Below are positions 2,174-64,000 of a DNA stretch of 64,000 bases, piece after piece. The stretch is from Trypanosoma brucei (Eukaryota), in assembly GCA_000002445.1 (NCBI GenBank), contig CM000208.1, positions 1,568,001 to 1,632,000 of the forward strand, written 5' to 3'. Below the pieces are notes generated by a model. It did no database searches. It saw only the letters and a program-made list of their open reading frames with translations, and was not told where the DNA came from. Each line of letters opens with the position of its first letter. The first letter of the stretch is position 1. The position numbers and the translations under genes are program-made.

Positions 2174-2192
2174 CCCCCCCCAAAAAAAAAAA
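2174..2192 (-). repeat. T11-G8 homopolymer junction tract on the minus strand (C8A11 on plus). A C10 run lies nearby at 2097-2106.
   Basis: Direct read of plus 'ccccccccaaaaaaaaaaa'. It has the same T(n)G(n) polarity relative to the minus-strand transcription direction. Confidence 0.9.
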
Positions 2193-2388
2193 GAAAAACA
2201 AGTAGGGTAATGATACAAAGAGTGGTGATTATACAACAGAGAGGGGGGAAATAAGTGAAAATTGAAAGAAAGTGTGCACTCCACGCGAAATGTAAAAGAA
2301 AAAAAAGAAGAAATTGAAGGGGGGGAGAAAAATAGGCAAAAAAAAAGAGGGTAACTGGTGGTCCACACGTTTGACTCACTATTCTCCA

Positions 2389-7434: not shown

Positions 7435-8563
7435 TTCTCACCCTTTGCCTTACGTACGCACACCCTTTTAATCCTTAACCACAGGACAAGCAAGAATACA
7501 GAAGGTCGTAGGGAAAGAAAGCAAACGATAGTTAGGAAATGCGTGTATATCAATAACGTTAACGACACCGATAGGAGGGAGTTACGCAAAACGAACATTT
7601 GTAATGAAGTACAACCACGAAAGTTGGTCAACCAAACTGCAGGTCTGTGGGCTCGTGCCGGGGAAACACCAACAAGAAAGAAGGCGCAGACACCGCTTAC
7701 TCCCAGCCTCAGCCATATAACAAAGAGTAATAGCCGTCATTAAGGGTCACAACATACATCTTCACTGCGCCGTCAAGGCTCCATAGATGGTGATATCGCC
7801 GTGAGGCACATTTGCAAGCGATGTCGGGGCAAAACACTACCGACATGCACGTAAGCAATCAGAATGTTGGTGCAAAAAGAAAGAGAGTTCGAAGACGAAT
7901 ATCTCCCACCTTCATGTTGGGGACCCAAAGTTAACGGCGAAACCCCGCACCAACCCCGTGTATCGAAGGATGACGTAAATGCCCCGTGCATCCATAAAGC
8001 GATCAAGTGTAATGCTCCACCTCTCCATGCACAATAAGATACACACACACATAGACAAATCACCTCGTTACGGGGCGAAGCTCTAATGCATCTACTGCAC
8101 CACGAAGAAAAAATATATACATCATAAAGTGAGTGCGCACACCTTACGTTTCCAACAATTTTCGACGCAGGAAGGCACGTGATGGTGTGAATTGCATAGT
8201 AACACCATTGTTATAAGCAAACACTCGGTAAACAACGCAACCAGAAGGCCCGGAAAAACAGCAACAAAGACAGTGCAATAGATGTGAATGCGGAGAGAGC
8301 TTGTACGGCCATCAAACTAATAACACAAGCCCCATACACCACCGCGTGGATGGAGGAATGTGCATGTCACAAAGTACATATGAGTTCACACATCACAATG
8401 AAATTGGCAGAAGTCAGACGAAAAGGTCGTCACACTAACGGTAGGAGCACGTGAGAGCGAGACAAGTCCTATGGCACGAACCCTCCAACGACGTACAGCA
8501 AACACATCAACGATGCCCATTTCTCCAGCATGCGATTTCAAACAACCTGCATTGATAGGGATC

Positions 8564-46145: not shown

Positions 46146-47834
46146 TCAATACATGCCGTCCATACCTCCCATACCACCCATGCCTCCCATACCACCTGCA
46201 GCAGGTGCATCATCCTTCGGTAAATCCACAACCGCGGCCTCTGCCGTCATCATGAGGCTGGCAACAGACGCAGCGTCAGTAAGCGCAACACGAACCACAC
46301 GCGCGGGGTCGATTATTCCGGCTTCAAACATGTTCACGTAGCGATCAAGCTGCGCATCGTAACCAACAGCGGCATCAGTGTTCTCGAGCACCTTCTCAAC
46401 AACAACAGCACCTTCCCTTCCAGCATTGGCAACAATGCGGTGGGCGGGCAACCGCACCGCGTTACGGATGATCTGCACGCCAGTCCGTTGATCAGCGGTG
46501 AGTGACTGATCCTGTAGTAATCCGTCCAATGCTTTGCTCGCACGCAGCAACGCAGCGCCACCACCAGGGACAATGCCTTCCTGCACCGCAGCGCGGGTCG
46601 AGCACAGGGCATCTGTGATGCGGTCCTTCTTCTCGTTCACCTCCACCTCAGAAGCACCACCAACGCGGATTACGGCAACGCCACCACTCAGTTTTGCAAG
46701 ACGTTCTTGAAGCTTCTCGCGGTTATAGTCACTCGTCTCGCGCTCAATGAGCCCGCGCAGCAGGTCCACGCGTTCTTTCATCATCGCAACGTCGCCACCA
46801 CCGTTCAACAGTACTGTATCGTCCTTCGTGATTGTTGCCTTCTTCACACTCCCCAAGATGCTGGCGTCGAATTTCTCAGCGTCAAGTTCCACACCACTGC
46901 CTTCCTCACCAACAACGCAGGCACCACTGAAAATGGCGATGTCTTGCAGCATCGCAGCCTTGTTGTCCCCGAAACCTGGAGCCTTCACGCACGCAATCTT
47001 CAGCTTTCCTTGAAGTTTATTGAAAATCATCGTCGTCAGGGCCTCACTCTCCACATCATCCGCAATGATCAGCAATGGTCGCCCACTGCGCACCACGTGA
47101 TTCAACACCGGTAAGATCGTATGAATGTTGTTCAACTTCTTTGCAGACACAAGCACGAACGCATCTTCAAGCTCGGCCTTCTGAGTCTTCGCGTCAGTTA
47201 CGAAGTACGGGCTGATGTAACCGCGGTCCACACTCATGCCTTCCACAACTTCCAGCTCAGTCGTCAATGTCTTCCCATCTTGTGTTGTGATCACGCCATC
47301 CTTCCCCACCTTCTCCATCGCCTCCCCAATCAGCTTGCCGAGTTCAACATCACCGTTCGCGGAAATCGTCGCAACCTGCACAACGTTCTCCGTATTTGTT
47401 ACCGTTCGGCTCTGAGATTCGATGTTCTTCAGGATCACCTCCACGGCGCGGTCCATACCACGCTTCATGTCAATGGGATTCGTCCCGGTTGCAATCGATT
47501 TGATACCCTCGCTAAAGATGCTTGCAACGAGGACAGCCGATGTCGTCGTTCCATCACCCGCGAGGTCATTTGTCTTATTGCACACCTGCCGCACGAGCTG
47601 CGCACCCATGTTCTCAAACGGGTCCTTGAACTCGATCGACTTCGCAACGGTTACACCATCCTTCGTGATCTTCGGAGCACCGTACGATTGCTCGATAATC
47701 ACGTTACGTCCCTTAGGCCCAAGGGTCGTTGCAACAGCCTCCACAGCGCGTTGTACGCCCTTCAGCATAGATTGACGTGCTTCCGTGCCAAAACGGATGT
47801 CTTTGGCACCAAAACGGACGACACAGCGGAACAT
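46146..47834 (-). CDS. HSP60: Mitochondrial chaperonin HSP60 (GroEL family)
   Basis: 562 aa, ATG confirmed. GroEL signatures: '[17 protein letters not shown]', '[12 protein letters not shown]', '[27 protein letters not shown]', 'VPGGGAAL'. The C-terminal Gly-Gly-Met repeat tail is '[18 protein letters not shown]'. A polypyrimidine tract on the coding strand lies just upstream (plus 47865-47890 'aagagggaggaaggtaacc'). Confidence 0.95.
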
Positions 47835-47864
47835 GTTCGGATCTTATTGTTTTGTGTTCTATGG

Positions 47865-47890
47865 TAAATATGATAAGAGGGAGGAAGGTA
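47865..47890 (-). promoter_or_regulatory. Polypyrimidine tract (coding-strand) upstream of the HSP60 start: candidate trans-splicing / upstream-gene polyadenylation signal
   Basis: Plus 'ataagagggaggaaggtaacc' equals minus 'ggttaccttcctccctcttat', 30-60 nt upstream of the ATG. The exact acceptor AG cannot be fixed without RNA data. Confidence 0.35.
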
Positions 47891-48855
47891 ACCGATACCG
47901 GTTTTTTTGTTGTTGTGTCGTGATGTTTCTTGTGATCTTTTTGTTTTCAATGTTGTTTATGTATCTCTTCCAGTGTTTGAACGCCATCAGTCATCGCAAG
48001 CTGTTGTATAGTCAGTTTTGTTAGCTTTTTTTGTTATTGTTGCCTGCTGTGATTCGTTCTTCGTTTTAGTCTTTTAGAGACGAAAAAGGTAATTTTGTAG
48101 GGTTCCCCATATAAAACAAGCATTCTGTTGTTGTTGTTTTTTTGCGGCATGGTACTTCATCTGTACAGTGACCGTGACCTGTTGATCGTTCCTCCTTTCG
48201 TTACCAACAAGCAATGCACGCACTGAAATGTGTGTTATGCAAGAATTCCCTTTGTCTTGTATCTGCTGAGAAATTTTGTTGCGTATTGCTTGCGCACAGG
48301 ACGAAGACGGAACGTGCGAAGCATTTCTTCATGCGTTATGGCACGCAAACATACACTTTGCCGTGGCCTTTTTGTGTTGAGATAGCAACTTCCCCAACCC
48401 CCTCTTTGCTTATCCCTCCTGCCGCTTCTTAGTTTAGTGTTGCCCCTGTAACTTAGCTCTTTCGCCCTTTTCCCTCGTCTAGAACTCAAATCGTCTGGAG
48501 GCCGAGTCACGCTGTAATACAGACTGAATCTCCACTTCCCTGATATTTTGCTTCATTATGGCCCTGAACAAAAAGAAGATCACTCCATCCCACATATCCT
48601 TCCATTTGATCCATTTCCGACCGCGGTGGAATGCAAGTCTTTTGACGCACAACATAAAGGTTAATACTGCTCGTGAGTTTTCAAGATATCTGAATTCGGC
48701 CATAAAACACCACCGCAGAAACTCGCAATGGCTGGATTGACAACCTACACGGAGACGTTACAGTTCAAAGAGGGCATCAGAACAGGGGTGAAATTTGATC
48801 TATGTTCCTCTCCGCCAAGTCCTCGGACTCATTGGTAAAGGCGTCACCTGGGTTT

Positions 48856-51849
48856 CTACCGATGCGAGAACTGTGTCCCGCTGAGCGTGATGAACCCCCG
48901 AACCGTACCCAGGTCCCTTTGTCGTTCGTACCACTTGGCGAGCTCCAGAGACTTAACCCGTGCTGTGTTTACAACCCCGGGGGAAATACCGGCAAGCAGC
49001 GCCACCTCAACGCCATAGCTTCTCGCGCAGATTCCGGGCACAAGGCGATAAAGAAAAGTAATGGTCGGTATATTGCTGTCACTTGCAGCAGAAACGGCAA
49101 AGTCCATGTAACCGAGCTGAACCCCCCCAGTTTCAGATGCTGCTGAGGAAGTGGATTTCTGCATGGACTTGTGCTCCTCCTGCGCGAGCGCGTGGTAGTG
49201 GGTAGAGAAGAGTAGAAGGGGCGGCACTGGGTGCCTTTTCTTCATGGCGGCGAGCATTGCGTGCGCTATTGTGTAGCCGTCGTGCGTAGATGTCCCCCTG
49301 CCGAGTTCATCCACTAAACAAAGACTCCACGGACCGGCAAACCGCACAATCTCGGCTGTCTCACTTAACTCGACATAAAGGGTACTCTGTCCTTTGTGCG
49401 TTGCATCGCGAGCGCCAATCCTTGTGAAAACACGGGTAACGGGCGCCAAGCGCATAGACGTAGCAAACACTGGTCCACCCATTTGGGCTATTATAACATT
49501 CACGGCAACTGTGCGCATCAGCGTACTCTTTCCAGCCATATTCGGTCCGGTCAGCACCAAAATGCGTCCATGTGTAGCGTCAAGATTGACAGTGTTTGGG
49601 ACAGAATCGCTTTTGAGAAATGGATGTCGTAGTTCTTCCGCAAGCAGGTACGCACCGGCGTCACATTCTTGTACAACGGGGTAGCAAGTAGCGACACCAC
49701 TGGTATGTAGCGACGCCAGACTGAGCAAACAATCAAAATAGCAAAGAGCCGCTGTGGCTTCATAAAGGACGGGGAAGTAATTAAATATATGCGAGGCAAT
49801 GTTTCGAACAACAAGTAAGAGGGCATCTGCTTTCTTCGTTTTGGCACGCTTATGCTCCTCTACCAGAGGTTCCAAACCTGCGACTGTATATCTGACACAC
49901 GCTGAAGTACGGGATCGCTCGATGAACCCAGGGGGACATCTCTTAGGTGCCTCCATCAATGGAACCTCAACCAGAAAATTTTCACGACCGATATGAGAGT
50001 AGGTGATTGCAGCACCGTTGAAAATGTTGTCGCGCAGCTCCCCTAAAACTTCATCCAATTTTTTCTCTATGATATCTAAGCACTCCGTAGCTTCGTCGTA
50101 CGCGGGACATGCTCCCTGCGATGGTACAATCACCCCTGACACCTCAGCAGCTTTTCGATCGAAACAGGCCTTGATTGAGGCGACAGCAGGAGCCACTGCG
50201 CCCATGGTTCCCCACAGTTCCTGCAAAAGAGGGGGGGCACACTCCTTTTGGACGTTGTTAGACCAATCCAGCATCTCCTCGAATGCAACAACGGTTGAAA
50301 TAATAAGTTGAAGATGCTTCTTGTACTGCACGAGAGGATCTACGAAGGCTATTTGTTGCGAGTCACCCTTCAAATCGGCCAACCGTGAAAGATTGCGCTC
50401 GAAATCTGTGGCGAAAAGGTTTGTAAATCGAGATTCAAATGTGTTTGTTGTCCTCCCCCGCTTCGATCCACACTGCGTACCACTCGCCTGAGTGAATTCT
50501 TGGGTAGGGCCCTCGGAAGTACGAGTGCTCGAATTAGGGGTGCATATTGGTGTCGTAACATCGGCAGACTCCTCCGTTTTGGCCCAGAGATCATTCAAAT
50601 TATTTTCGATGATAAAGCGTACCGCTTCCTGCCTCGCATTGATAACACGCGGGGACGCGGAAGGTCGCAAAATCCAAGAACGGAAAAGACGCTTTCCACC
50701 GTTGGTGCAACAACGGTTGATCAGATTAAAAAGAGATCCGCGTTCACTATCGTCCCGCAGGTTACCCACGAGTTCAAGATTACTTACTGTCGCGGCATCA
50801 AGAACCAACCCGGGGTCTTCGCGACGTTCGTACCACAGAAGAGTTGAATCGGAGCAACGACTTCGATCATTCGACGGCACACCGCTGGTTACCTGCTGCT
50901 TTAAAAGGTGAAAGTTGTATGGTCGAGCCTCCAAAAGTATAGAGTCAACATTACTCAACTTTAACGATCTAAAATACTGAGCTAAGAAACGACCCGCCTC
51001 CTTTAAGCTCCTCTCCTCAAGGGGGAGTTTGCGAAGTGAGGTACCAACCTCTTCAACCAGTTCAACCTGGAAACCCTCCCCTTCTACCCATTCAAATAGA
51101 CGTCTCCCAAATGATCCCTTGGGCTCCTCACCAGGCGCATCAACAGCCCCACGCGGAATTATTATTTCACGGGGACGGATTTGTTGAAGGAGCGCAGAAA
51201 CTTCATTAAGCACCTCTTCAACAAAGCCTGCGGCGCTCTCCTTGCCATTCGTACCGCAGGGACAGTGGAAAACAACGCGACGGGAAAGATCGACGGCCAT
51301 TCCATCCACACTACCGCTCCCCATTGGATACAGTGCAAGTACGAACACTGCACCATAGCCGCTGATCATCATGGGATCGGTTATGGTGCCAGGGGTAAGT
51401 ATCTCAACTAGCTCTCGTGGCACGACTTTCGGACGAGCATTTTTTGATGACTCCCCTTCCTCCTTCATTTGCTCTACTCGACCCACCTTGTAGCCCCGAA
51501 AAACGAAGAGACGGGCCCATTCACTAAATGTTTGTTCAGGGACGCCTGCAAGCCGCATTTTCCCTCGGTTAGTGGTGTCAACAACTAGCTTCAACCCGAA
51601 CTCACGGTGAGCCATAGCGGCATCTTGGTCGTAAAGCTCATAAAATTTGCCCTTTTTGAAAAAAATTACCACATCGTAGTGCTTTGACTTCACTTCCCAG
51701 TACTGTCGTTCCATGGCAGCCATTGCCTCCAAGTCCCTAGGAGGGATAGTAATAGAAGAGGGCGGTCGCTTCGGATCAATACCCCTTAAAAACGGGTAAG
51801 AAACGTTTTCAGGGCAAATGTCCTCACATTCAAGCGAAACCTCAGGCAT
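48856..51849 (-). CDS. MSH6: MutS homologue, MSH6-like mismatch-recognition subunit (MSH8-type in trypanosomatids)
   Basis: 997 aa, ATG confirmed. The N-terminal mismatch-binding domain has the Phe-X-Glu motif 'KKGKFYELYDQDA' (compare MSH6 'GKFYELYHMDA'). Walker A 'LTGPNMAGKSTLMRTVA', 'STH' in 'FSTHYH', Walker B 'LCLVDELGRGTSTHDGYTIA'. It has no long N-terminal PWWP/PIP extension. It is the first (most upstream) gene of the minus-strand transcription unit in this window. Confidence 0.8.
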   Translation of the reverse strand: MPEVSLECEDICPENVSYPFLRGIDPKRPPSSITIPPRDLEAMAAMERQYWEVKSKHYDVVIFFKKGKFYELYDQDAAMAHREFGLKLVVDTTNRGKMRLAGVPEQTFSEWARLFVFRGYKVGRVEQMKEEGESSKNARPKVVPRELVEILTPGTITDPMMISGYGAVFVLALYPMGSGSVDGMAVDLSRRVVFHCPCGTNGKESAAGFVEEVLNEVSALLQQIRPREIIIPRGAVDAPGEEPKGSFGRRLFEWVEGEGFQVELVEEVGTSLRKLPLEERSLKEAGRFLAQYFRSLKLSNVDSILLEARPYNFHLLKQQVTSGVPSNDRSRCSDSTLLWYERREDPGLVLDAATVSNLELVGNLRDDSERGSLFNLINRCCTNGGKRLFRSWILRPSASPRVINARQEAVRFIIENNLNDLWAKTEESADVTTPICTPNSSTRTSEGPTQEFTQASGTQCGSKRGRTTNTFESRFTNLFATDFERNLSRLADLKGDSQQIAFVDPLVQYKKHLQLIISTVVAFEEMLDWSNNVQKECAPPLLQELWGTMGAVAPAVASIKACFDRKAAEVSGVIVPSQGACPAYDEATECLDIIEKKLDEVLGELRDNIFNGAAITYSHIGRENFLVEVPLMEAPKRCPPGFIERSRTSACVRYTVAGLEPLVEEHKRAKTKKADALLLVVRNIASHIFNYFPVLYEATAALCYFDCLLSLASLHTSGVATCYPVVQECDAGAYLLAEELRHPFLKSDSVPNTVNLDATHGRILVLTGPNMAGKSTLMRTVAVNVIIAQMGGPVFATSMRLAPVTRVFTRIGARDATHKGQSTLYVELSETAEIVRFAGPWSLCLVDELGRGTSTHDGYTIAHAMLAAMKKRHPVPPLLLFSTHYHALAQEEHKSMQKSTSSAASETGGVQLGYMDFAVSAASDSNIPTITFLYRLVPGICARSYGVEVALLAGISPGVVNTARVKSLELAKWYERQRDLGTVRGFITLSGTQFSHR

Positions 51850-54800
51850 TGGAAAGCGGAACTAGAGATCTCCTCAACTAATTAATTCAGGATACCAAGG
51901 GTCAGATCTCCCTCCAGCACTTAGGCAAGTAAACAAGGAGCGAAAGGCAATACTATCGTAAGTAACACAGGGCACCATGAGGTAAACAAACACGAAAAAA
52001 AGTAGTTGAAAAAATAAACACATATATGCCTTCTGAAACGGTATCCGAATCCTAGCATCCCGTGGTAATAGTTATTATAAGTGTTAGACGTAAAGTGTCA
52101 ACCACGAGGGTAAACGAAGGAAAAGAAACAATAAATAATCACGCTGATGTTTGAATATCATGTCATTCCTCACCACCGTTCCGAAGGTGACAAAAACATG
52201 TATCTGCTACCTCTAACTTGAGACAAAATTGAATATAATCGTAAAGGGTGTACCCGATACATACACGAATAACACTCAGTGTAAAAATTAAAAAATGAAT
52301 AAAACGAGAAGACCTTCGGTAATACCTAAGAAGACAGAACCTGTTTCAAACTCGCTGATTACATCCAACGTCCCTCTTATCCATCAATCCGGCTTGTAGT
52401 GATGACACATTCTAGTAATCAACTGTGAAAATGGGGTGAGATCATGAAAGCAGATGTTCATCCGCTGTTCATTCCGCGAGGATGTTAAACCTACACGGAA
52501 CCTTCCTTAGCTCTCCACACTGGGCACTATGAGGAAAACATGCCGTGCTACCTGTCACTGGAAACCTGTTGCTTCACCAGCAACGATAGACTAAAACGTG
52601 GCCCCAAACCCCCAAAAAGTTAGCGCCAGGACTGAAAGTTCGTACCATTTGCCCCGCAGAGCACATGTGTGCACGAGCGTATTGCCGGTGAGGAAAGAAA
52701 AATCCATAAACGTTTTCAGCAAAACATTGGAGGCCTCGGTTTTCCATGAAATACCATACATACAAGAAACAAGCGAAACGAAAAATAAAACAAAGCACCA
52801 TAGTTGTAGTCATGGATAATGCCCGTAGTTCCTTTTTTTTTTTGAGGAATAAATGAAAACATGTTCAGATTTTTTTGAAGAAAAGGGGGAGTTGCCGACC
52901 CTTAGAAAGCACCAATCAGCTTTTTCTCCTCAAAGGTTCGACATACCGCAAAGAATTGTTCATACGGTGCCCAACATCGGTTCGTATGCACCGCTATGAT
53001 CATTTTCGAATGCAACAACCACTAACGAGTCAACCCATTGCAACAGGGGAAAAGTATAAAAAAAACAAACTACACTATTGCTTCATTCAGAAATAAAAGT
53101 GATTGATGCGGGCACTAAATGTTAGAGGAAAGACTCGCTGAATTTTGTGAGCAGCGAGTCCTCTATTATATTACTACTCATCGATTTTATTATATTTTCC
53201 TTATATAATACAATTTATAAGGGGAGATGTGCCGCCGAATCATTGCATAAGTAAGGGAAGAAATCGAGAGAAAACGCAGTAGCTTCTGCATGTTATGCAG
53301 GACCCTAGACCATGGCTAAGCTAAACTCAAAGAATTAAAAAACAGTTAGAAAACACCGAAAGGCTTGATAACAAGTGAAAACCGCCACGATGCACCGTTT
53401 AGTGATATATCTAAAGTAACAGAGTTGAACAATAACTAGTGACAACGGAAACTGCATGGCCACCTTGAGACAAATATACCATAGCCCAATTTCACGGAAG
53501 AAAAAAGTCGATAGGAGCTAGTGGGCACGAGAGCTGTTGCCCTACGTGCTGGAGAGCAAAGCAATACTGAGCAATCACGTGTCCACAAGAAAATATTATA
53601 ATCAAGGGATAAAGCTCAGCAACCGTTCACCCTTTTGGTGCTTTTTGGGACACACAAAACCGAGGACAAAAGACGCAAAACGGTGAAGAGGTAAATATGT
53701 GCATGGCACATCATAAGCCATCAAAGATAGGCATCCAATACCCAGAGATGCCCCGCGGTTAAATCGGTTCCCAGCTTGTTTTTGTTTTACCGCGACCAGT
53801 TAGTACACCAAAACTTTTTTTCGTTAATTAAAAGAGTACCCCTCCAAACAAAACACTGAACCCATTAACACCAAATCAAAAAAGCCTTAGTGTTTCAAAA
53901 TAAAAAACGCAATATAGCATAAGGGTCAAGGTACAATAAATGGATTGTAAGTGTAAAGATTAAAAGGCAAGGGGGGAAACACGATCGTGGCGTGTAGCAC
54001 TTCCTTAGAAACACATATTGCACCGGTTGCCTCACAGAATGGAAGGAAAAAGATACCAGCACAATCGCACCGATACATACGTACGATGAACCAATTCGTA
54101 GAGCTTAAGTAATTAAAAAATATGAGCAGCTGGTGGCCAGGTTCGGGGAACTCAGCACAACGCATTACCAGGTTCAGCACATCGGGTAGACGGGGGAAGG
54201 GTTGTTTGTCTTCTTCATCAGCGCTGGAGCGGCCTGTCGCCCATACGTGTAACAAACCACAGTCAACAGACTAATGGGATATTGTGTCCACAAACTCTGC
54301 AAAATCGGCTGATATTTACACAGATTGGAAAGCGAAAATTAAAAAAAACCATGTAACCAAAGGAACCTCAACCATCTCTTTCCCCTTCAAAACATTAAAA
54401 TAATTTTCAGCGAGTATAACTAATCCCTTATTCATGAAGAATCGAGCGAAAGGGAAGAATAAATGTTGGAAACAGTGGTTGTGGTAAGCATATCTTCAAC
54501 TTTTCTATCACATAGAAAGGCATTTTAAAACCTTCCAACACGAAATTTTGACAAACATCCTCGCACGTACGGCCAACCCTCCGCAACAACACATGAACGA
54601 TGTTTACACACCTTACATGTATGGTTCCGGGAGTTCACCCTTCCCAGAGCCGCTGTTCGGTGAAAATCAAAAGAGGGCTATTATGTTATCCGTGACGATA
54701 TAAACAAACGCACAAAAGCGCAGTGAATCTCACCTATTTAAGAATAAGTTAAAGCTATGACAAAAATACAATAAGAAAGGGAAAGAGTTGGCTAGTGGAT

Positions 54801-57800
54801 TTTCTCCACGACTTTCCCCAATTCACTAAAAGCAAGAAAAAAGTGCATTACGGCCGGTCAGGGAAAGCATTCGGCTCAAACGTACCACAGGGTAGGGGGA
54901 AATAGAGCTAAAATTCCCTCCGTGCCGTAGGCTTGCGGCAAAATCGAGGGAAAGTGCGGATCGAAAAGAATATCGGCTACAAGCTAGCAAAAAAAAACGT
55001 ACCGACGTGCAGGGAGGAGACTGGGGATGCGGCATGTCTACTCGATCTTCACATACTTACAGGCATATGCACACCGTGGGATTCAACCTGAATAGAAAAA
55101 CAGCAAAGGAATGTCAGCCATTTAGACAGTGGGGAATTTTGGGTCCGCTGTCAAGGTCAGTATTAAGCTGCATACTGGTAGACTGGGATCGACTGATTAC
55201 TGCACGATTTACAAGCAGCGGTACACACACATCTAACCGCCAAAACATATTTGCGCATGGGCGGGAATACCGGTTGTACAATTCCCCCTCCAGATTAAGG
55301 ACCACTTTGCCAAGTAAGAACCGACGACCCAGCATAATGTTCCTACAATGAATTTTCAACAATGGTCGGACCAAATAAGTAAGAGTACGCTACACCACCT
55401 TTCAAAACGGTCCACTTTCCAACACACAGAGGAAGAAAAGAGGCATGTGTCTCGAGACGCCCACAGTAAGAGAGAAAGTGTGATACATATAATCCAGAAA
55501 AGTTAATACCACCAAAGATGACTACTAAGGGCAGATAGGTATCCAGATGTGTATCTCGATACCGTTAAGAGTGGCCAATCAACGAAGCAGCATAATCATG
55601 CGGCACATCGGAAGAGAAAAACAGCTAATATATAGGATTCACGGTACTTATCTATGAGAAACAAGCGAGTCAAAATCAATCTAAAGATAATTCGCGCGGC
55701 ACAACATAAACAATCGGTAACGGAAGGGAAATCGCGGTTGCACACACATTCAGAGATTCGTCCGCCCGATTCTCCTCGAGTCGAACAGGAAAAACTCGAG
55801 TCGTTAATCCGAACACTATTGATATACAAAGTGCGTATTTCAACAGTTTCACCGAAAGACAATCATTTTCATAACCCCCATGGGCGTCAACGGCTGGCAC
55901 ACCGATAACGAACCCTTGGCAAACTCGCGAAAAAGAGGTCGGCCGAATTATCCACCAGGCCGTATATCAAAAGGCATTCACAGCCGTGACGCCGACACGA
56001 AACAGGGCAACTGAAACTGGCATAAACTCACACATATATAGTCACTTTAATTACGCCAGTTAGTAAAAATGAATAAACAATGCAACAGTTAACAGTGAGC
56101 ACAAAAGAGTGTATACATAATAATGGCGTGTTGTGCAAGGGCAATGCAACTTAACTAGCGCTACTACACGTGCAGCCATCATAACTCCCTTTTTCGAGAC
56201 GTTTCAGAGCATTTCAACGAAAAACGGCACACGTACATGCACATGAAGATGCGTCTGTTTTAAACAGTAGTAACCTACAGCGTTAAATTCCCCTAGGGAA
56301 GCAAGACGTCATGGCACCACAAGCTGCGGCCGAACGGATGCGCAACACGACATTTATGAGAACTTAAAGTCAGGCGGAAGTAATCCCTGTAAACAAAAGA
56401 GAACACTCGTTGACAAACGCAACAGAAAGGGGAAATTACAAGAAAAAACCACTAACCCAGTTACTGAAAGCGCCCCTTATATGTTTTTTTCCTTTTTTTA
56501 ATGCAACTGCAGGTAGCTTCTCGCAACAGCAAAACGAATACCACATCTCCGCCCATATGCGCAGGTATACATCGACTCCGGTTCAAAACTCTTTGTCGTG
56601 CATGATGGCTCAATACCTTCAGCGGTTGCGTCAAATTGCTTCCACACCAACCAACGACATGTTGATAAACCCGGGTGTGACGCCAACAAACAATCAAGCC
56701 CCGGGTGGTAATGTACCCAGTGCCACCGCGTCTGCAAATAATGACGCCGCTTAAAAAACATGTTAATCCACAAACTTGCCACTGTAAAGGCAAAAGGCTC
56801 ACAATCGCCGCCAGCCTAGAGTCACAACACGACCCGCCAACTCCCCAAACCGTCCAAAAAAAAAAAGATTCGACACAGCAGGGGCCAGTACTACGTAATC
56901 GCGTCCTGCATGACCCTTTCGAGCAACCCCTCGCCCCCGGCTCCGAGATTTTCTGGACAGACGCCCTCAGGCCAGAAACAAGAGGTGCGCACCCCATACC
57001 AATACACCGACGCCCCGTGCCACACCGTGTCACATCATACACTTGCGAAATGCATACTCAACATCATCGCGGGGGGATCTCCAGCGAAAGCTGCCGCTAC
57101 GGGTGTTCCCTCGGTGAAGGGTCCCTCTGGCGTCCCCATCGCTCCAAGTGGTAAAAGCGGCCGAAAATAAATTGACTACAAAGGGGGCCCCGACGTGTAA
57201 CTCGCGCGCCGCCCGAACAAACGCATTTTCGGGCAGCAGTTTATGGGGAAACCTTGTGTAAATAGTACCCCCTTGCTTAGAATCATAACCGCCGACATGC
57301 GGAAACAACTGTGGCCCACGGCGGCTGAACCACTGTGGCGCCTTGCAATGTAGCGGCCTCGACGAACACTAACACGGAGAAGTAGGGAAAAGAATTATGC
57401 AAAAAGCCCCACCCCCACGCTCACTATACACAGAGAAAAGCGGAAGCCCAAAACGCATGCGCCCGCACGCACAGCTCTGAGAACTGCGAATGAAGCCGCG
57501 CGAACGGCCAAACCTTATTTGACTTTCCCTGCTTCCGGACATTATCCTCTCCGATGCTGGGAGCGGGCCCCTTTCCTGGTCCGGTGCTTGTGCGCTCTTC
57601 CTGTCGCAGGCACTACTTGGACCATTCACCGGGACGGCGGGTAGCGGGCAAGCGTTGGGTAAGAAAACTCCTTGACGCAGTGCGAATGGTCCGCCAGACA
57701 CTCTTTCCGGAGGAGACCATGAGCAGGCAACGCTAGCCACCAAGAGGACACTGCTGTGCTCGGGACCCTGTATTGCACAGCTTTTGGGTCAACGGCGTAG

Positions 57801-58766
57801 CGCTGGGACGCCGTTTTCCACTCGTCAGTCCCTGAGGGAAAAATACAACTGCATCGGGCCGTCGGCCAGGACAGATTCGGGTCAGGCACTTACAGTCCAT
57901 CACCCTAAGCTAAATGAGAAGCTCGTACACATGCCTGCGCTGTGTTGCGGAAAATGTTTTTTGTAAATCCGTTGATTGATCGTTTTCACGCAGACAGCAG
58001 TCGAGAAACGTTAGGAGCACATCGCAACAGATGTCGAGCGGGACCCTTTTGGCTCCGGCAGTAAGATCGCGTATTTTATCCCCCTGTGCACGACCATTCC
58101 TTATCTTTTTGACTGTGCTGCTGAGGTACGGCCGACTCAGGTGCAAACGACTATTTATTTATTTTTTTTCGCCGGCGCCGGATGGAGGGGTCACAATGCC
58201 GTCCACAAAACGAGAACACCCAACGGCGGGCACCGCCAGACTGACCAGACTGTTACTGCGCGCGCCAGATAACTTTTGAAATCTCTCCGATATCCACCAT
58301 GCCGAATTCAGTTGTACCGGGTTAAAGGACCCCTACCGCCTTTTTTTGCGGACAAAACTAGAGGGAGCAGCGGCAGTTGCTGCAACTCCGTTGCGTAGAC
58401 TGGAATGCACCTCTCACGTGAAGGAGGTTTCAGCCAAGGTGTGTGTTTTGGCGAGCACAGGGGGAAATTGCGGCAGTCTCTTCCTTAACAGAACCCTCCG
58501 TGGCGCCCCGCTCTCCAGTCCGTAGTGGTGGGGAAGACTTCTTGATCCCGGACGCAGGGGCATGTGAAAGAATTTCTCTTTACGTACATTGTTGTCATTA
58601 CATTTCCTTCACATGGAGAGACCATTTCCGGCACACACGTGTATCGAGTGACACCCTTCAAAGCAGCGTCGACTTACATGTTCTCAGATCACAAAACGCA
58701 GCTGCGACGTCTCGAGAGTGAAAGCGTCCAACAATAAATTAGAGGGCTTGAATGTAAGTACGGGTC

Positions 58767-58768
<2 letters not shown>

Positions 58769-58805
<37 letters not shown>
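58769..58805. repeat. (GT)n dinucleotide microsatellite, ~18 units
   Basis: Direct read: 'gtgtgtgtgtgtgtgtgtgtgtgtgtgtgtgtgtgtg' at 58769-58805. Confidence 0.95.
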
Positions 58806-58806
<1 letters not shown>

Positions 58807-59106
58807 AAACCGCCCTAGAGCCCCCAGTTCTAGGGATAGTTTGTTATGGAATCGTAGCCGTCATCACGGTTGATAGCATGTTATTCTCGGTGCATAGGTG
58901 ACCGCACTTAGTATCGATGTGACTCAGTGAGCCGAGCGTGACTGCGTTGTGTTTTATCGTAAAACTAGTCCTCCTTTGGGCGTAGAAAAGTAAATTTGGC
59001 GTCAGCGTTGCAGTGGGCTTGGTACAGTATTACAATGCGCGTCTGAAAGCAGGGTGGTTTACACGAAAGTTGGGACTCACTCCCTACATTTTCTTTGGTT
59101 TCTGTC

Positions 59107-59126
59107 TTTTTTTTTGGGGGGGGGGG
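59107..59126 (+). repeat. T9-G11 homopolymer junction tract
   Basis: Direct read: 'tttttttttggggggggggg'. Confidence 0.95.
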
Positions 59127-62100
59127 TGAACTGATCAACGTCTCGGGGATATTACACGATTCATAATGGGAACGTTTTCTTAGTCCCTGGTTGAAATTCA
59201 CAAATCCGACAACACAGCAAACTACTTACCACCGCCCCTCCTACAAAAAAAAGACGTTTCAACCAGTGCTGAGGAGAAAAAAGATTTCTGTTTGGCTATG
59301 GCGGGCCGTCACCTTGTTTGTACCATTGACCCACTGGCTGTCTACTTCAAAAACATACACTGCGAAATGTCACCTCAGGAAGGTAGCACCAGTTGTCTCT
59401 TGGCCAATCCATTTCTTGCCCACCCGCCTTCGGAGGAGCGTTGCAATGGAAACCGGAGATATACTGATTAGTCTTTAGGGTTTGACTGAGTTCCAAAGCC
59501 ATAGTTTAGAGTTAGGGTTAGGTGCGAGTTGGTGTACCAGTCCAAATTGCGAACATCATCTTATCTAGTGCAGCGCTTCATTACAGCTGCACCGCGTTTC
59601 CAGTAAACGTGCGTCGCTGCAACACATTGGGTGGCCAATGCCTCTCTACGGTATGGGCACGATGGCTCCCTCCTCTTGCATGTGATAGCGTGTGGGTCAT
59701 CGTTCCTTTGGTCCTATTCCTCAAATGCGGAGCAACCCCTTGGTCACTTTCTTTGAACTGAACTTCAGACTCATCGACTTGTCGAGTCATCCAATCATAA
59801 AAACGCCAGAGCCTCTCCGTGGAACTCCGCGAGCGGTCAGACTCCTCCTGAGTCAGCGTTGGACCCTTCTTGTTGGCCGTCCGGTAGTTTGCGAACAGCC
59901 CCTCTCCACTTGCAATCGGAATCTTTTTTTGGCGTCGCTTGACTGGAGCAAAGGTTCTGTAGGTAGTGCTGCGTTCAGCTTCGTCTCTTGCCCCCATCCC
60001 TCAAGGTTGATTTTTTGTTTTACTCCAGTGAGAAACCAGAACCTGTAGTGGAATGCGAGCGTCACAGTGTGAGACTAAAAAATACCCTTACGTTATACGG
60101 AGCTCTCTCGAACACTACGCCAAGATCTGTTCGAGGCACCATGGGTAGTGTTCGAGAGTCTGGTATTATACACTTTACACAAACAGGGCATATAATTATG
60201 CGGAGATTTCCCTAGTGTTCGATACTATTCAAGATGTGAGAATGCATTTCCTATGGTGACTAAAAGTGTGTTATATCGGCTTAGTTCCCCTGCACATAAT
60301 ATACCATGAGGCGTTATGTACACAATATGGGAAGTGTGGCTACTGTATATGTTATTTGTTAACTCTTCCTTCGAATGAAACTACAGTCACAGCTCTCCTT
60401 CTCACATCATATGTATCTGCTTTACCTCACATTATTACTCTATACCATCGTGTTCTAATGGGAAAAATGATGTGGAATGACGGATTGGGTGAAAAAAGAA
60501 AAGATCAGAAAGGCATGACTATCTCTCTCTATGGTGTGTGGTATACGCTGTTGATGCTTTGAAAGTTCTGCGTCATCACGTGATATCGTATATCCACATG
60601 CTGTGTGCATGTATTCGTGTGATGCATGCTTGGAACAATGGAGAGTGTGACCATGTCAGTTTGTGTTCACCACCGTGCTCTTCATCTGTAGGAGTAGGTA
60701 AAACTAACAACAGATCATCAATATTTCAACGAAGGGAAGACAGGGTCGGTTTTAATCTGCGGCCACCGAGTGTCGGAGCAACGGTGGAGCCCCAACGTAT
60801 CCGTAGTGTTCAACCCCCTCCGTTGCGGTCTCCGCGTCCCCGCTCCTCATTGTTCGGCCGCTTTTGAAGACGCCACGTTGAGACTGGAACCTGTGTCTTG
60901 CCGCTTTTGCTGGAAAGAGGAAGGAAGATCACTGTGGCCACTAACAGTGGAGGGTCGGGTGTCGTGAGATGTGTCTATCTTCCGTTGGGGTTTTCTTCTT
61001 GGGAAAGCGGTTTACCTTAGTGGGCGGCGGTAACCTGTTCTATTTGGAAGGATGTCGTGCAGGGGGTGAGTGAGTTTTCTTGACCAAGTTTACGAATTTG
61101 TTGTGCACCCCTGTTTTATCCCACTGCTTGAAGTGTTTCGGAATAGATGATAGGGAGGATGGTATGGCAAGAAACCTGCCGGGACCTTTACCGTTTCACC
61201 GCTGACTACATGTTCCCACAATTTTCTACCATATCCTTCGGGCGGCATTGCAGTGAGAGTGCCATGTGGGACAGGGGACAGATTGGAACTTGATCTTCCG
61301 GAGGTCTTCGGAGTTATAGAGTGATTGCTTCTCTTCTCCTTTCCTTTGGCGTGACTCTCATACGGAGGCTCTTGGTGAGCAGGATACAATTCGCCTGCTG
61401 ACTTTTTGGTTTATTTTTTTCCATATTTCAGTGTTGCGGGGTCACTTTCGGCACCGTTGGGAATCGAGAAGTGACGTATAAAGGTGTTCGCTTCTGCAGC
61501 AAAAAGTGGTTCCGTTTGGTATTCGTTTGTGGAGACATTTTCCCTCCTTCCCATTTCGGACAACTTTTTGTCCCGGAAGAAGGGCTTTTGGTATTGTCCC
61601 GTCCGATGATCTTTGCCCCGATCGTTCCATCATGAATAATAGCTACAACTGTGTGTGTCTGTACGGCTGTGGATATTTCCGCAGTCCCCAATCGCTTCGG
61701 TCGCTTTTACTCTTTTATAGCACGGTTTAGAGTTGGTAAGCCGGCACCGTTCCATGGAAATAGCACTCATAGACATGATATCGGCGCCCCCTCAGAGCTT
61801 ACGCGGGCATCGAAGAGTATGACTTGATTGTCGCTGTGCGATGCGGATTGGAGGGTCATGTTTCTAACGAGGCAGCACCTCGAGAGGGTCACGCTGCTGC
61901 CTGAACTAATGGCACGCGCATGGCCACATTTTACACGCTCCCATATGCCTTCAATGTTTCACATATTTTCCGCATACCGAAGGACGACGAAATCACTCCC
62001 TCTGCGTGAAGGGACATCTTTATCCCGCTCCAAAGGGTTGGAAGTTGGAGCCGTTAGTGCTTACCTCTGTTCCTGCAGAGTTGGATCGCGGAACTGTTCA

Positions 62101-63596
62101 GTTATCGCTATTTTTCCGTGGGGGAATTTAACGGGGGTAAGGGTGATTTTGAGGGATCCTGCAAGGTGGGTTCTTGCGTGGACAAATTCGCGCGAATCAA
62201 CACTCGAGACACCCATCTCCGGTGACAGGTTTTAGAAGAAGTTTAAGGGTACAATAACAGAGCGTTCATGCATAGCTATGCCTATTTGCTTCATATCCCT
62301 GAGGAAGTGATGCGGCAACACATCCTCGTGGGGGAAGGGACCCAAGGAGTACGAAGGGTTTCGAGTGCCTTTTATTGTTATCGAGGCATATGTCCCACTC
62401 CACTACCAAAACATCCCCGCACAACGACGGGGGCCCTTCGGGTAGTAAGCCGATCTTGCTAACCTTCTCTTTTTTCAATACATACGCGCCCACTTCTCTT
62501 CTCTTCGTGATGGTGTACGTGGGGGCCACCGGAATGGCGCCTGTTATGGCCCTGGAGGTTGCAAAATAAGGAGGGAACACTTTGTATAAAGGGATGGGCA
62601 ACCGGACTCGTTGTAGCAGAAAGTCGGAGGGGTCACACTCAGTTTTCGGCCCGCTGCAGGAACAACGCTTGAGGGGCGAGTCGCTAGGAAGCGTAGCGGT
62701 GAGAGCTTTCCCGTTTCTGGAGGGGTTTTGGAGAGCTGACACCGAGAATGCCGGTAGGTTCGCCTCGGCCGGGACATGACAACTGACACTATTGAATTGA
62801 GTACTTGGAGGGGTGACGGTGTGAAGGTGAGGTATCAACCGATGGAGGTCGCGCGTCCCAGCGTCCCAGGTGGCCGTCAACCTGGAACTGACAGGCCCTG
62901 TGCCTGGGCTTTTGCCGAGCTGCTCGTCTGACAGAAAGGGAAGCTGCGTCAATACTGAGGCCCTTGTCGCTGTGTTTGATGTTTTGTCGCAGATGCTGCT
63001 TTTTGTTTTATTTTTCCCCCATGGGGACTCCAAATTGAGTTAGAGCGGCGCCTGCTACAAAGAGATTTGGTCGTTTTTCGTGATAAAGTTAGGGCTCTGC
63101 TCGGTGCATTTTTTTAAAAAAAATTCTAGGAGGCAAGGGTCCTGGGCGCGGGGGCGGGGACACCACTACGTGGGCTGCAGCATGTGGACTCTGCCGGCCC
63201 CTTTTCTTTTCACCGAAACGCTAGCTGACCTATGCTCGCCGCGCACGTCCAAGGTGCCATGGAAGTACCCCCTCAGTTGTTTGCCCGGAAAGTGATGAGG
63301 GAGCAGCCGGCCATTACTAATCCGTGGGCTGCCGGTGGGACATCAGGAAGGTGATATTGCTGCCGGTTTTGTAAAGAGCAAGGTGAGACCGGCGCATCCC
63401 GACATCTCTTTGAGAGTGCCACAGCCCATCGCTAGAGAAGGCAGCGGTTTGCAGTACGCTGTTGGGGTGCGCGCCTGTCTGAGGACTTCCCTAATGTAAA
63501 CATGTTGTGGCTGCCTCTTTGGGCATGAGCGTCTTAGGTGCGATTGTTTTTTCCTACGTTTCGCGGTCGTCACAGTGGTAGGTGGTAGACTGCATG

Positions 63597-63624
63597 TTTT
63601 TTTTTTTTTTTGGGGGGGGGGGGG
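63597..63624 (+). repeat. T15-G13 homopolymer junction tract
   Basis: Direct read: 'tttttttttttttttggggggggggggg'. Confidence 0.95.
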
Positions 63625-64000
63625 TGATTATCTATGCCTCTCCTCGTTTTAGGTGCGAGCATCAGCAGCGCCGGCGGACGTGTTCTTGACTCCTAGTGGG
63701 CGCGTAAAAGACGGTTTGTTTCGAGTTGTTCGGTCCACGCGGCCTGGAGCTACGTTGGCGGAAGTGGGTGGGTTCCTCCTTGTCGTATGCTCGGACAGTC
63801 CTAGCGATAAGACCGCGGGAAGGGACTTCTGTCGCGTGTGGGTGATCTGGGTTTATCGCTGTTGCTCAATGGAGCTTTTTTTAAAGGCCTCCCAAGAGGG
63901 TCCTTTTACTCTGTACTGTTCAACGTTGGCGCCCACTCGCTTAGTATTCACAGTCTTCGTGAGAAGAGGTTGGTTGCGGATACTGTAGAATGGCATCCGG

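What the first reader, a model, noticed from the sequence alone, without database searches (positions are those of the whole stretch)
56400..58700. A 2.3-kb GC-rich ORF-free island at the centre of the putative switch
GC content rises visibly here. Examples are 'gcgcgccgcccgaac', 'ggcccacggcggctgaaccactgtggcgcc' and 'gccggcgccggatggagggg'. All six frames are broken every 60-190 codons. In an AT-biased genome such an island is a candidate for a structured non-coding RNA gene or a Pol II promoter core. It could also be a decayed retroelement or pseudogene. I could not match it from memory to SL RNA, snRNAs, 7SL or rRNA sequences.
Basis: seen in the sequence. Interest (0 to 1): 0.5.

Follow-up and report, generated by a model that had tools for sequence, protein, structure and literature searches.

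The report
GC-rich core of a divergent promoter region
The GC-rich stretch is real, but it is the non-coding centre of an already mapped region on Trypanosoma brucei chromosome 10 where two gene arrays are transcribed in opposite directions, not a hidden RNA gene or dead retroelement.

Summary
The window is T. brucei brucei TREU927 chromosome 10. Every real gene from 2389 to 51849 is on the minus strand and ends with MSH8. The next real gene, phosphomannomutase (PMM, Tb927.10.6440), starts about 540 nt beyond the window on the plus strand. So 51850-64000 is most of a ~12.7-kb divergent strand-switch region.

The GC rise is real. GC is 0.531 over 56400-58700 and 0.564 over 56700-57900, the highest 1.2-kb value in the window. 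The strand asymmetry of G/T-only runs and G4-prone segments flips inside it, at about 57418-57955.

The other readings find no support:
- Rfam and tRNA scans are empty, and there is no excess RNA folding.
- No Pfam domain appears in six-frame translations.
- No similarity to sister species was found.
- Open frames are no longer than composition predicts.

The island is not strictly ORF-free. The reference annotates a 178-aa "T. brucei spp.-specific" ORF at 56461-56997(-), but its codon usage looks spurious.

Kieft et al. 2020 (S10 Fig) show what I identify by gene number as this locus, with PPP-seq and H2A.Z marking two divergent start sites.

One small addition: the orthologous switch regions of T. 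vivax, T. melophagium, T. cruzi and T. grayi also carry a GC peak without sequence similarity. L. tarentolae does not.

Verdict: an ordinary, already known kind of feature.

The parts
48856..51849 (-). MSH8/MSH6-like MutS gene, the first real gene of the minus-strand polycistron. I infer it is Tb927.10.6410.
   Evidence: Pfam MutS_I/III/IV/V. 100% identical to the T. equiperdum protein; the T. congolense ortholog is TCIL3000_10_5490.
51850..56399 (.). AT-richer proximal part of the switch region, upstream of MSH8.
   Evidence: GC 0.425. No ORF longer than about 150 codons. G/T-only runs are 12 on minus sense against 4 on plus sense.
56400..58700 (.). The GC-rich island as reported.
   Evidence: GC 0.531. 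No Rfam hit, no Pfam hit, no excess RNA structure.
56700..57900 (-). Island core. It is G- and T-rich on the minus (MSH8-sense) strand. I propose it is the 5' part of the transcription start region of the MSH8 polycistron.
   Evidence: GC 0.564, the highest 1.2-kb window of the 64 kb. Plus-strand GC skew is down to -0.25 and AT skew +0.05 to +0.33 in the 300-nt windows. In 56400-57899 there are 5 minus-sense and 0 plus-sense G/T runs, and 3 G4Hunter>=1.5 segments, all on the minus strand.
56461..56997 (-). Annotated hypothetical ORF Tb10.70.0410 (probably Tb927.10.6420), 178 aa. Most likely not a real gene.
   Evidence: Exact match to XP_822884.1 / Q38AW4. Codon log-odds is -0.11, inside the range of spurious antisense ORFs and below all 19 real genes. 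It has no Pfam hit. It contains an A11 tract read as FFF that is one codon longer in T. b. gambiense.
57418..57955 (.). The point where strand composition switches.
   Evidence: The last minus-sense G/T run ends at 57418 and the first plus-sense run begins at 57955. AT skew changes sign here.
58768..58806 (+). (GT)18 microsatellite, a G/T-only element on the plus strand.
   Evidence: Its length differs in T. equiperdum.
59107..59128 (+). T9G11 tract, a G-run of the kind reported at trypanosome start regions.
   Evidence: It is one of the two longest G runs in the window. Wedel et al. (PMC5579346) report long G or T stretches on the coding strand at the 5' ends of start regions.
61858..62235 (+). 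Annotated ORF Tb10.70.0380, 125 aa, which I equate with Tb927.10.6430. That gene is silent in wild type and lies upstream of the plus-strand start site.
   Evidence: Exact match to XP_822885.1. PMC7055916 text, S10 Fig legend and supplementary table show it is derepressed on PNUTS/JBP3/Wdr82 loss.
61801..64000 (+). Second GC-rich block, G/T-rich on the plus strand. It probably holds the start region of the PMM polycistron.
   Evidence: GC 0.534. G+T fraction is 0.51-0.64. All G4Hunter segments are on the plus strand. The PMM ATG lies about 540 nt beyond the window (L004).
63595..63626 (+). T15G13 tract about 0.9 kb upstream of the PMM start codon.
   Evidence: Its length differs in T. equiperdum.

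Best explanation
The island is the non-coding centre of a divergent strand-switch region on T. brucei chromosome 10, between MSH8 (minus strand) and phosphomannomutase (plus strand). RNA polymerase II starts the two polycistrons here and transcribes outwards in both directions.

Shown by sequence:
- The sense strand on each side is enriched in G and T: G/T-only runs, long G tracts and G4-prone segments.
- That enrichment flips strand inside the island, at about 57418-57955.

Inferred:
- 56700-57900 belongs to the broad, dispersed start region of the MSH8 polycistron, where H2A.Z nucleosomes are deposited.
- The promoter fires in both directions.
- Plus-strand 'antisense' transcripts would begin near the (GT)18 and T9G11 tracts at 58.8-59.1 kb.
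- These transcripts are normally stopped early by the PNUTS-PP1-JBP3-Wdr82 complex. Without that complex they read into Tb927.10.6430.
- The productive plus-strand start lies further right, in the second GC block near the T15G13 tract at 63.6 kb.

The annotated 178-aa ORF inside the island is most likely a chance open frame.
For: Gene layout:
- All long ORFs from 2389 to 51849 are on the minus strand, and there are none from 51850 to 64000.
- T. equiperdum locus L004, 99.78% identical, places PMM on the plus strand just beyond the window.
- PMM is Tb927.10.6440 = Tb10.70.0370.

Composition:
- GC is 0.564 in the core, against 0.449 intergenic and 0.518 CDS.
- G/T-only runs are 17:4 minus-sense left of 57900 and 14:2 plus-sense right of it.
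- G4Hunter segments are strictly strand-specific on either side.
- The two longest G runs in the window, T9G11 and T15G13, both lie on the plus strand to the right.

Literature:
- Wedel et al. 2017 report G- or T-rich 10-mers on the coding strand at the 5' ends of start regions. Synthetic GT-rich elements drive directional transcription and H2A.Z deposition (PMC5579346).
- Kieft et al. 2020 show a divergent chromosome 10 region with PPP-seq and H2A.Z. Tb927.10.6430 lies upstream of the wild-type start site and is derepressed by top-strand 'antisense' transcription (PMC7055916).
- Divergent switch regions of 5-10 kb are reported to hold two oppositely oriented core promoters (PMC11796357).

Other species:
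- The switch region next to PMM has a 300-nt GC peak in the top 0-1.3% of its locus in T. melophagium, T. cruzi and T. grayi. The ORF-poor region upstream of T. vivax MSH8 has one too, in the top 0%.
- In T. grayi the GC skew flips inside the peak.
Against: - No start-site, H2A.Z or Pol II data could be read here. The figure in PMC7055916 is not held, so the position of the minus-strand start relative to the island is inferred.
- My equations Tb10.70.0410 = Tb927.10.6420 and Tb10.70.0380 = Tb927.10.6430 rest on gene order only; for 6430 the plus strand also agrees with the paper's 'top strand'.
- G>C and T>A on the sense strand is a general property of these polycistrons. So the skew alone does not mark a promoter.
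- L. tarentolae has the same MSH8|PMM switch region without a GC peak.
- There is no primary-sequence conservation with any other species.
- The 75-bp core promoter of Cordon-Obras et al. 2022 could not be checked, because the paper is not held.
Confidence: 0.72

Rival explanations
1. The island is a relic of an inserted sequence, such as a degenerate ingi/RIME/DIRE/SIDER retroposon or a dead gene. It now evolves neutrally, and its GC content is inherited from that ancestry.
For: - Stop-type trinucleotides are mildly depleted against dinucleotide shuffles: 80 against 98 +/- 7, P=0.004 for 56400-57900.
- The T. brucei switch region is much longer (12.7 kb) than its counterparts: 0.5-0.9 kb in the stercorarian species and 3.8 kb in L. 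tarentolae.
- Retroelements are reported to accumulate in strand-switch regions (PMC4748587).
- There is an A11 tract at 56856-56866.
Against: - No Pfam domain, including reverse transcriptase and endonuclease, appears in six-frame translations of 56101-59100 at E<=1.
- phmmer of the 139-codon open stretch against 1.8 billion proteins gave only a repeat-inflated chance hit.
- tblastx against all fetched loci was empty.
- The CCACC-N4-CGTG part of the Pr77 hallmark occurs at chance level, with no exact match.
- There is no repeat copy elsewhere in the 64 kb.
- Codon usage is not gene-like.
- GC peaks at orthologous switch regions in four other Trypanosoma species argue against a lineage-specific accident.
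Confidence: 0.1
2. The island encodes a structured non-coding RNA, or a long non-coding RNA with a function of its own.
For: - One 150-nt window on the minus strand (56875-57024) folds into a long hairpin, with z=-3.7 on 40 shuffles and -2.3 on 200 shuffles.
- Switch-region transcripts do exist in trypanosomes (PMC7055916).
Against: - Rfam is empty at gathering score. At E<=5 no hit falls in the island.
- Mean folding z in the island is +0.12 against -0.07 outside, P=0.41.
- The one hairpin is not significant after 318 tests.
- There is no sequence conservation in T. vivax or any other species.
- The orthologous loci also have no Rfam or tRNA hits.
Confidence: 0.05
3. The annotated ORF 56461-56997(-) is a real T. 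brucei-specific protein-coding gene and the first gene of the minus-strand polycistron. Part of the GC rise would then be coding sequence.
For: - It is annotated in TREU927, T. equiperdum and T. b. gambiense.
- It lies on the correct strand for the MSH8 polycistron.
- It is 99% identical between subspecies.
Against: - Its per-codon log-odds is -0.11. The 19 real genes range from 0.03 to 0.32, and spurious antisense ORFs from -0.12 to +0.04.
- Its GC at codon positions 1/2/3 is 0.48/0.55/0.49, against 0.58/0.43/0.53 in real genes.
- Its length is within the chance expectation for this composition.
- It has no Pfam hit.
- Its N-terminus differs by 52 residues in T. b. gambiense, and an internal homopolymer varies in length.
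- Flanking non-coding DNA is equally conserved within the T. brucei group, at 99.78%.
Confidence: 0.05
4. The island is neutral spacer whose GC content is a random fluctuation with no role.
For: - Its GC exceeds the richest coding window by only 0.002.
- There is no conserved sequence.
Against: - It is 11 points above pooled intergenic GC, and no non-coding window outside it reaches its value.
- It coincides with the switch of strand asymmetry.
- A GC peak recurs at the orthologous position in four other Trypanosoma species.
Confidence: 0.08

Closest known systems
Divergent strand-switch regions / Pol II transcription start regions of T. brucei (Siegel et al. 2009, recalled from my own knowledge; Wedel et al. 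2017, PMC5579346; Kieft et al. 2020, PMC7055916)
   Same: - It lies between two divergent polycistrons.
- At ~12.7 kb it is somewhat above the reported 5-10 kb.
- It has G/T-rich sense strands and long G tracts.
- By gene-number assignment, this locus is shown with two divergent start sites and a silent gene between them.
   Different: I found no difference. The literature I could read describes GT-richness and G runs, but I did not find a local rise in G+C stated explicitly.
CpG-island-type dispersed promoters of vertebrates
   Same: It would be a GC-rich, motif-poor, broad and bidirectional initiation zone marked by chromatin rather than by a defined motif. Wedel et al. draw the analogy to dispersed promoters.
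   Different: CpG observed/expected is about 1.0 everywhere here: island 1.00, CDS 0.97, intergenic 0.94. The island is therefore not defined by escape from CpG depletion. It serves polycistrons, not single genes.
GC-rich strand-switch centromere domains of T. cruzi (Obado et al. 2005, known to me only from its title in the reference list of PMC11666725)
   Same: A GC-rich, gene-poor domain located at a strand switch.
   Different: - Per the title, the T. cruzi domain is 16 kb.
- From my own knowledge those domains consist of degenerate retroelements, and T. brucei centromeres are AT-rich tandem repeat arrays.
- Here the island is 1.2-2.3 kb, with no retroelement signal and no tandem array.
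ingi/RIME/DIRE/SIDER retroposons
   Same: They are often found in strand-switch regions, and degenerate copies lack intact ORFs.
   Different: No reverse transcriptase or endonuclease remnant, no Pr77-like core, and no second copy in the window.

Membership tests
Trypanosomatid divergent strand-switch region with Pol II start regions | Lies between two polycistrons transcribed away from each other | tested here: met
   Minus-strand genes run up to 51849. PMM lies on the plus strand about 540 nt beyond the window end (L004). The same MSH8|PMM divergence is present in L. tarentolae.
Trypanosomatid divergent strand-switch region with Pol II start regions | G/T-rich sense strands with long G or T stretches, flipping strand at the switch | tested here: met
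   G/T-only runs are 17:4 to the left and 2:14 to the right of 57900. T9G11 and T15G13 lie on the plus strand. G4Hunter segments are strand-specific.
Trypanosomatid divergent strand-switch region with Pol II start regions | Enrichment of H2A.Z, H2B.V, H4K10ac and BDF3 | not testable with these tools
   The S10 Fig legend of PMC7055916 states that H2A.Z ChIP-seq marks the start sites at the chromosome 10 region holding Tb927.10.6430. The figure itself is not held.
Trypanosomatid divergent strand-switch region with Pol II start regions | 5'-triphosphate transcript starts mapped on both strands | not testable with these tools
   PPP-seq is reported for that region in PMC7055916. I could not obtain coordinates relative to the island.
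Rfam non-coding RNA families (SL RNA, snRNA, snoRNA, 7SL, rRNA, tRNA) | Covariance-model match at gathering score | tested here: not met
   Zero matches in the window. Only two sub-threshold hits at E 1.1 and 4.7, both outside the island. No tRNA.
ingi/L1Tc-clade retroposons (ingi, RIME, DIRE, SIDER) | Reverse transcriptase or endonuclease coding remnants | tested here: not met
   Pfam on all six frames of 56101-59100 at E<=1 found 0 families.
ingi/L1Tc-clade retroposons (ingi, RIME, DIRE, SIDER) | Pr77 hallmark at the 5' end | tested here: inconclusive
   I could test only the part given in the text of PMC4748587 (CCACC at 16-20, CGTG at 25-28). There were 15 one-mismatch hits against 14.4 expected and none exact. 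The full consensus was not available.
ingi/L1Tc-clade retroposons (ingi, RIME, DIRE, SIDER) | Multiple dispersed copies in the genome | not testable with these tools
   No T. brucei genome or repeat library can be searched here. There is no second copy within the 64 kb.
Protein-coding gene | Codon usage and homologs typical of real genes | tested here: not met
   Codon log-odds is -0.11 for the annotated ORF. It has no Pfam hit. There was no credible phmmer hit for 57372-57788(-).
CpG-island promoter | CpG observed/expected raised above the genomic background | tested here: not met
   CpG o/e is 1.00 in the island, 0.97 in CDS and 0.94 in intergenic DNA.

The most novel reading that the evidence does not exclude
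A local G+C peak, G-rich on each sense strand, may be a conserved compositional determinant of bidirectional Pol II promoters in Trypanosoma. It would be maintained at this switch region across salivarian and stercorarian species although the primary sequence has turned over completely. It is absent in Leishmania. It would act through chromatin, for instance H2A.Z deposition, nucleosome exclusion, G4 or R-loop formation, rather than through a motif.
Probability: 0.3. Interest if true: 0.45.

Novelty: already known. Interest (0 to 1): 0.18.

Why it matters
How RNA polymerase II chooses its start regions in trypanosomes is only partly understood. So far GT-rich elements and one 75-bp promoter have been reported. 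This island adds no new kind of element. It is a textbook divergent start region, and the switch region holding Tb927.10.6430 has already been used to show PNUTS-dependent early termination.

The one observation that may be useful is comparative. The switch region next to PMM keeps a GC peak in five Trypanosoma species with no sequence similarity. If a genome-wide metaplot confirmed this, base composition would give a simple sequence-only predictor of start regions.

The work also flags Tb10.70.0410 as a probable false gene call.

Tried and rejected
- **Rfam.** Gathering-score searches on the window and on seven related loci found nothing. The E-value search on 51800-64000 gave only MIR837 and U6atac noise hits outside the island.
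- **tRNA scans.** None found.
- **Sliding RNAfold z-scores on both strands.** No enrichment in the island. The best hairpin drops to z=-2.3 with 200 shuffles.
- **Pfam on six-frame translations.** No hits.
- **The search for homologous proteins with a stitched 447-aa conceptual translation of the minus strand.** It returned nothing, not even the identical annotated 178-aa protein. I treat this as a tool failure, perhaps caused by the X in the query, and not as evidence.
- **phmmer of 57372-57788(-) against 1.8 billion representatives.** There were two hits. P0125 is a soil-metagenome tandem repeat whose score is summed over six copies of one 28-residue match. P0126 is a repetitive bacterial-type protein. 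I rejected both as chance.
- **Sequence comparison with other species.** blastn, tblastx and nhmmer against T. vivax, T. cruzi, T. melophagium, T. grayi and L. tarentolae loci found nothing significant.
- **Relics of displaced genes.** I looked for traces of the five genes (204-aa ORF, Vps41, TLD, Sec7, LicD) that separate PMM from MSH8 in the stercorarian species. There were none.
- **Pr77 partial motif.** It occurs at chance level.
- **T. equiperdum comparison.** At 99.78% identity it is too similar to test constraint.
- **Data that could not be retrieved.** These were chromosome coordinates, T. congolense DNA and the Cordon-Obras 2022 promoter motif. The Wedel supplements do not mention these genes.
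Full report
**Where the window comes from.** The 997-aa MutS ORF at 48856-51849(-) is 100% identical to the T. equiperdum MSH6/MSH8 protein. Its T. congolense ortholog is TCIL3000_10_5490. Two short ORFs of the window match TREU927 proteins exactly. ORF 56461-56997(-) is XP_822884.1, 'hypothetical protein Tb10.70.0410'. ORF 61858-62235(+) is XP_822885.1, 'Tb10.70.0380'. The window is therefore T. brucei brucei TREU927 chromosome 10. A T. equiperdum contig (L004), 99.78% identical over 47820-64000, continues past the window end. It places phosphomannomutase on the plus strand, starting about 540 nt beyond position 64000. PMM is Tb10.70.0370 = Tb927.10.6440 (PMC3465800). From gene order I infer that Tb10.70.0380 is Tb927.10.6430, Tb10.70.0410 is Tb927.10.6420, and MSH8 is Tb927.10.6410.

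**Checking the observation.** The quoted strings are present at 57204, 57313 and 58171.
- GC is 0.531 over 56400-58700 and 0.564 over 56700-57900.
- For comparison, GC is 0.425 in the left flank, 0.449 in pooled intergenic DNA, 0.518 in coding sequence and 0.490 in the whole window.
- No other 1.2-kb window in the 64 kb reaches the core value, though the richest coding window (0.562) comes close.
- The genome is thus not AT-biased. The island stands out mainly against non-coding DNA.
- The longest stop-free stretch is 198 codons. Dinucleotide shuffles of the same DNA give 145-156 +/- 32-34 codons (P=0.06-0.12). Only a mild depletion of stop-type trinucleotides remains (P=0.003-0.017).
- The ORF-poor stretch is far larger than the island: no ORF of 150 codons or more lies on the plus strand anywhere in 51850-64000.
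- The island is not ORF-free in the annotation, because Tb10.70.0410 lies within it.
- That ORF looks like a chance frame. Its codon log-odds (-0.11) falls among spurious antisense ORFs (-0.12 to +0.04) and below all 19 real genes (0.03-0.32).
- Its GC at the three codon positions is also atypical. It contains an A11 tract whose length differs in T. b. gambiense, where the predicted protein is 52 residues longer at the N-terminus.

**What surrounds the island.** All real genes from 2389 to 51849 are on the minus strand, and PMM is on the plus strand. Positions 51850 to about 64540 are therefore a ~12.7-kb divergent strand-switch region.
- Its composition has four parts: AT-richer (0.425) at 51850-56399, the island (0.531), intermediate (0.476) at 58701-61800, and a second GC block (0.534) at 61801-64000.
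- AT skew changes sign near 57900.
- G/T-only runs of 10 nt or more are 17 on minus sense against 4 on plus sense left of 57900, and 2 against 14 right of it. The last minus-sense run ends at 57418 and the first plus-sense run starts at 57955.
- G4Hunter segments (score 1.5 or more) are all on the minus strand in 56400-57899. Their density is 2.0 per kb, five times that of the polycistron body. Right of 58701 they are all on the plus strand.
- The two longest G runs of the whole window lie on the plus strand to the right: T9G11 at 59107 and T15G13 at 63595. The (GT)18 tract at 58768 lies there too.

**Tests of the alternative readings.**
- Structured RNA. Rfam finds nothing at gathering score in the window and only two noise hits outside the island at E<=5. 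There are no tRNAs. Folding z-scores of 150-nt windows on both strands average +0.12 inside and -0.07 outside (P=0.41). The best island hairpin falls to z=-2.3 with 200 shuffles.
- Retroelement or pseudogene. Pfam finds no family in any of the six frames of 56101-59100 at E<=1. A full HMMER scan of the 139-codon open stretch against 1.8 billion proteins returned only a repeat-inflated chance match. The testable part of the Pr77 hallmark occurs at chance frequency. No second copy exists in the window.
- Conservation. blastn, tblastx and nhmmer against the syntenic DNA of T. vivax, T. cruzi, T. melophagium, T. grayi and L. tarentolae find nothing significant.

**What the literature says about this locus.** Kieft et al. 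2020 (PMC7055916) use a divergent region of chromosome 10 in their S10 Fig.
[quoted passage not shown] - It is upregulated 4- to 7.5-fold on loss of PNUTS, JBP3 or Wdr82, because top-strand 'antisense' transcription is no longer terminated early. The supplementary table lists the gene with a fold-change value of 3.70, units not shown.
- The window ORF that I equate with this gene, 61858-62235, lies on the plus strand. That fits the paper's 'top strand'.

Two further papers give the general picture. Wedel et al. [quoted passage not shown] They also show that synthetic GT-rich elements drive directional transcription and H2A.Z deposition. Divergent switch regions of 5-10 kb are reported to hold two oppositely oriented core promoters (PMC11796357).

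**Best explanation.** The island is the centre of this divergent start region.
- Shown: its position between divergent polycistrons, the strand-specific flip of G/T elements inside it, and the absence of coding, RNA-family or retroelement signal.
- Taken from the literature: two start sites are marked by H2A.Z and PPP-seq at this switch region, with Tb927.10.6430 between them.
- Inferred: 56700-57900 is the upstream part of the MSH8 start region.
- Inferred: cryptic plus-strand transcripts start near 58.8-59.1 kb.
- Inferred: the productive plus-strand start lies in the second GC block, near 63.6 kb.

**A comparative addition.** The switch region next to PMM is old.
- In L. tarentolae, MSH8(-) and PMM(+) are divergent neighbours 3.8 kb apart.
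- In T. melophagium, T. cruzi and T. grayi the switch is only 0.5-0.9 kb. There the minus-strand polycistron begins with a ~200-aa ORF and Vps41. T. melophagium and T. cruzi also show TLD and Sec7 next, followed by LicD and MSH8.
- In each Trypanosoma species the switch region contains a 300-nt GC peak in the top 0-1.3% of its locus.

| Species | Peak 300-nt GC | Share of windows outside the switch that reach it |
|---|---|---|
| T. brucei | 0.60 | 0.3% |
| T. vivax | 0.68 | 0% |
| T. melophagium | 0.61 | 1.3% |
| T. cruzi | 0.55 | 0.8% |
| T. grayi | 0.71 | 0% |
| L. tarentolae | 0.49 | 64% |

- In T. vivax, a ~3.5-kb ORF-poor island (GC 0.54-0.64, mostly about 0.60) lies 5.5-9 kb upstream of MSH8, behind an AT-rich stretch. 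This mirrors the T. brucei layout.
- In T. grayi the GC skew flips from -0.31 to +0.32 inside the peak.
- These loci are orthologous and so not independent. I did not test other switch regions. I found no paper in the held library that states this GC peak explicitly.

**Verdict.** It is the GC-rich, non-coding core of a known divergent Pol II start region. It is not an RNA gene, a retroelement or a credible protein gene.

Noticed in passing
window 56461-56997 (-): The annotated gene model Tb10.70.0410 (probably Tb927.10.6420, 'T. brucei spp.-specific protein') has codon usage like spurious antisense ORFs. Its length is expected by chance. It also has an internal A11 tract that varies between subspecies. 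It is probably a false gene call.
   Followed up: yes
L007 1-10000, L008 1-10000, L009 1-9143, L002/L003 1-10000, L006 3133-10744: Synteny differs between lineages. In T. cruzi, T. melophagium and T. grayi, genes including a ~200-aa ORF, Vps41, TLD, Sec7 and LicD lie between the PMM switch region and MSH8. In T. brucei and L. tarentolae, MSH8 is the first gene. The simpler reading is a block insertion in the stercorarian lineage. No relic of these genes is detectable in the T. brucei switch region.
   Followed up: partly
window 60025-60250 and 53050-53275: Two places outside the island fold much better than shuffles on both strands: z about -3 to -4.8 with 40 shuffles, and -2.5 and -3.2 with 200. 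The first contains a near-perfect inverted repeat (CTCTCGAACACTAC ... GTAGTGTTCGAGAG).
   Followed up: partly
window 60333-60765: Nine of the 18 substitutions between TREU927 and T. equiperdum across 16 kb cluster in this 430-nt stretch of the switch region. The remaining differences are mostly length changes in (GT)n, T9G11 and T15G13.
   Followed up: no
window 1742-2330: A cluster of long homopolymer tracts lies downstream of the last minus-strand gene of the window: G8 at 1742, C10 at 2097, C8A11 at 2172-2192 (T11G8 on the minus strand), G6 and G7. It resembles the T-run/G-run tracts in the switch region and could mark an internal start region or another boundary.
   Followed up: no
L001 1000-4500: T. 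vivax has a ~3.5-kb GC-rich (0.54-0.64, mostly about 0.60), ORF-poor island upstream of MSH8, preceded by a very AT-rich stretch (GC 0.26-0.33 at 6000-9500). Two short genes are called inside it but have no Pfam hit. The T. vivax PMM contig (L005) does not overlap this locus.
   Followed up: partly
L007 9845-9940: A long (ATT)n microsatellite sits immediately upstream of the T. melophagium PMM start codon, inside the 810-bp switch region.
   Followed up: no
(tool behaviour): the search for homologous proteins returned no hit at E<=1 for a 447-aa query that contains the full 178-aa sequence of a protein known to be a cluster representative in the same collection. That negative result is unreliable.
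   Followed up: no
L002 13714-23009: T. cruzi carries a tandem array of at least five HSP60/Cpn60-like genes directly after MSH8. The T. brucei window has a single copy at 46146-47834.
   Followed up: no
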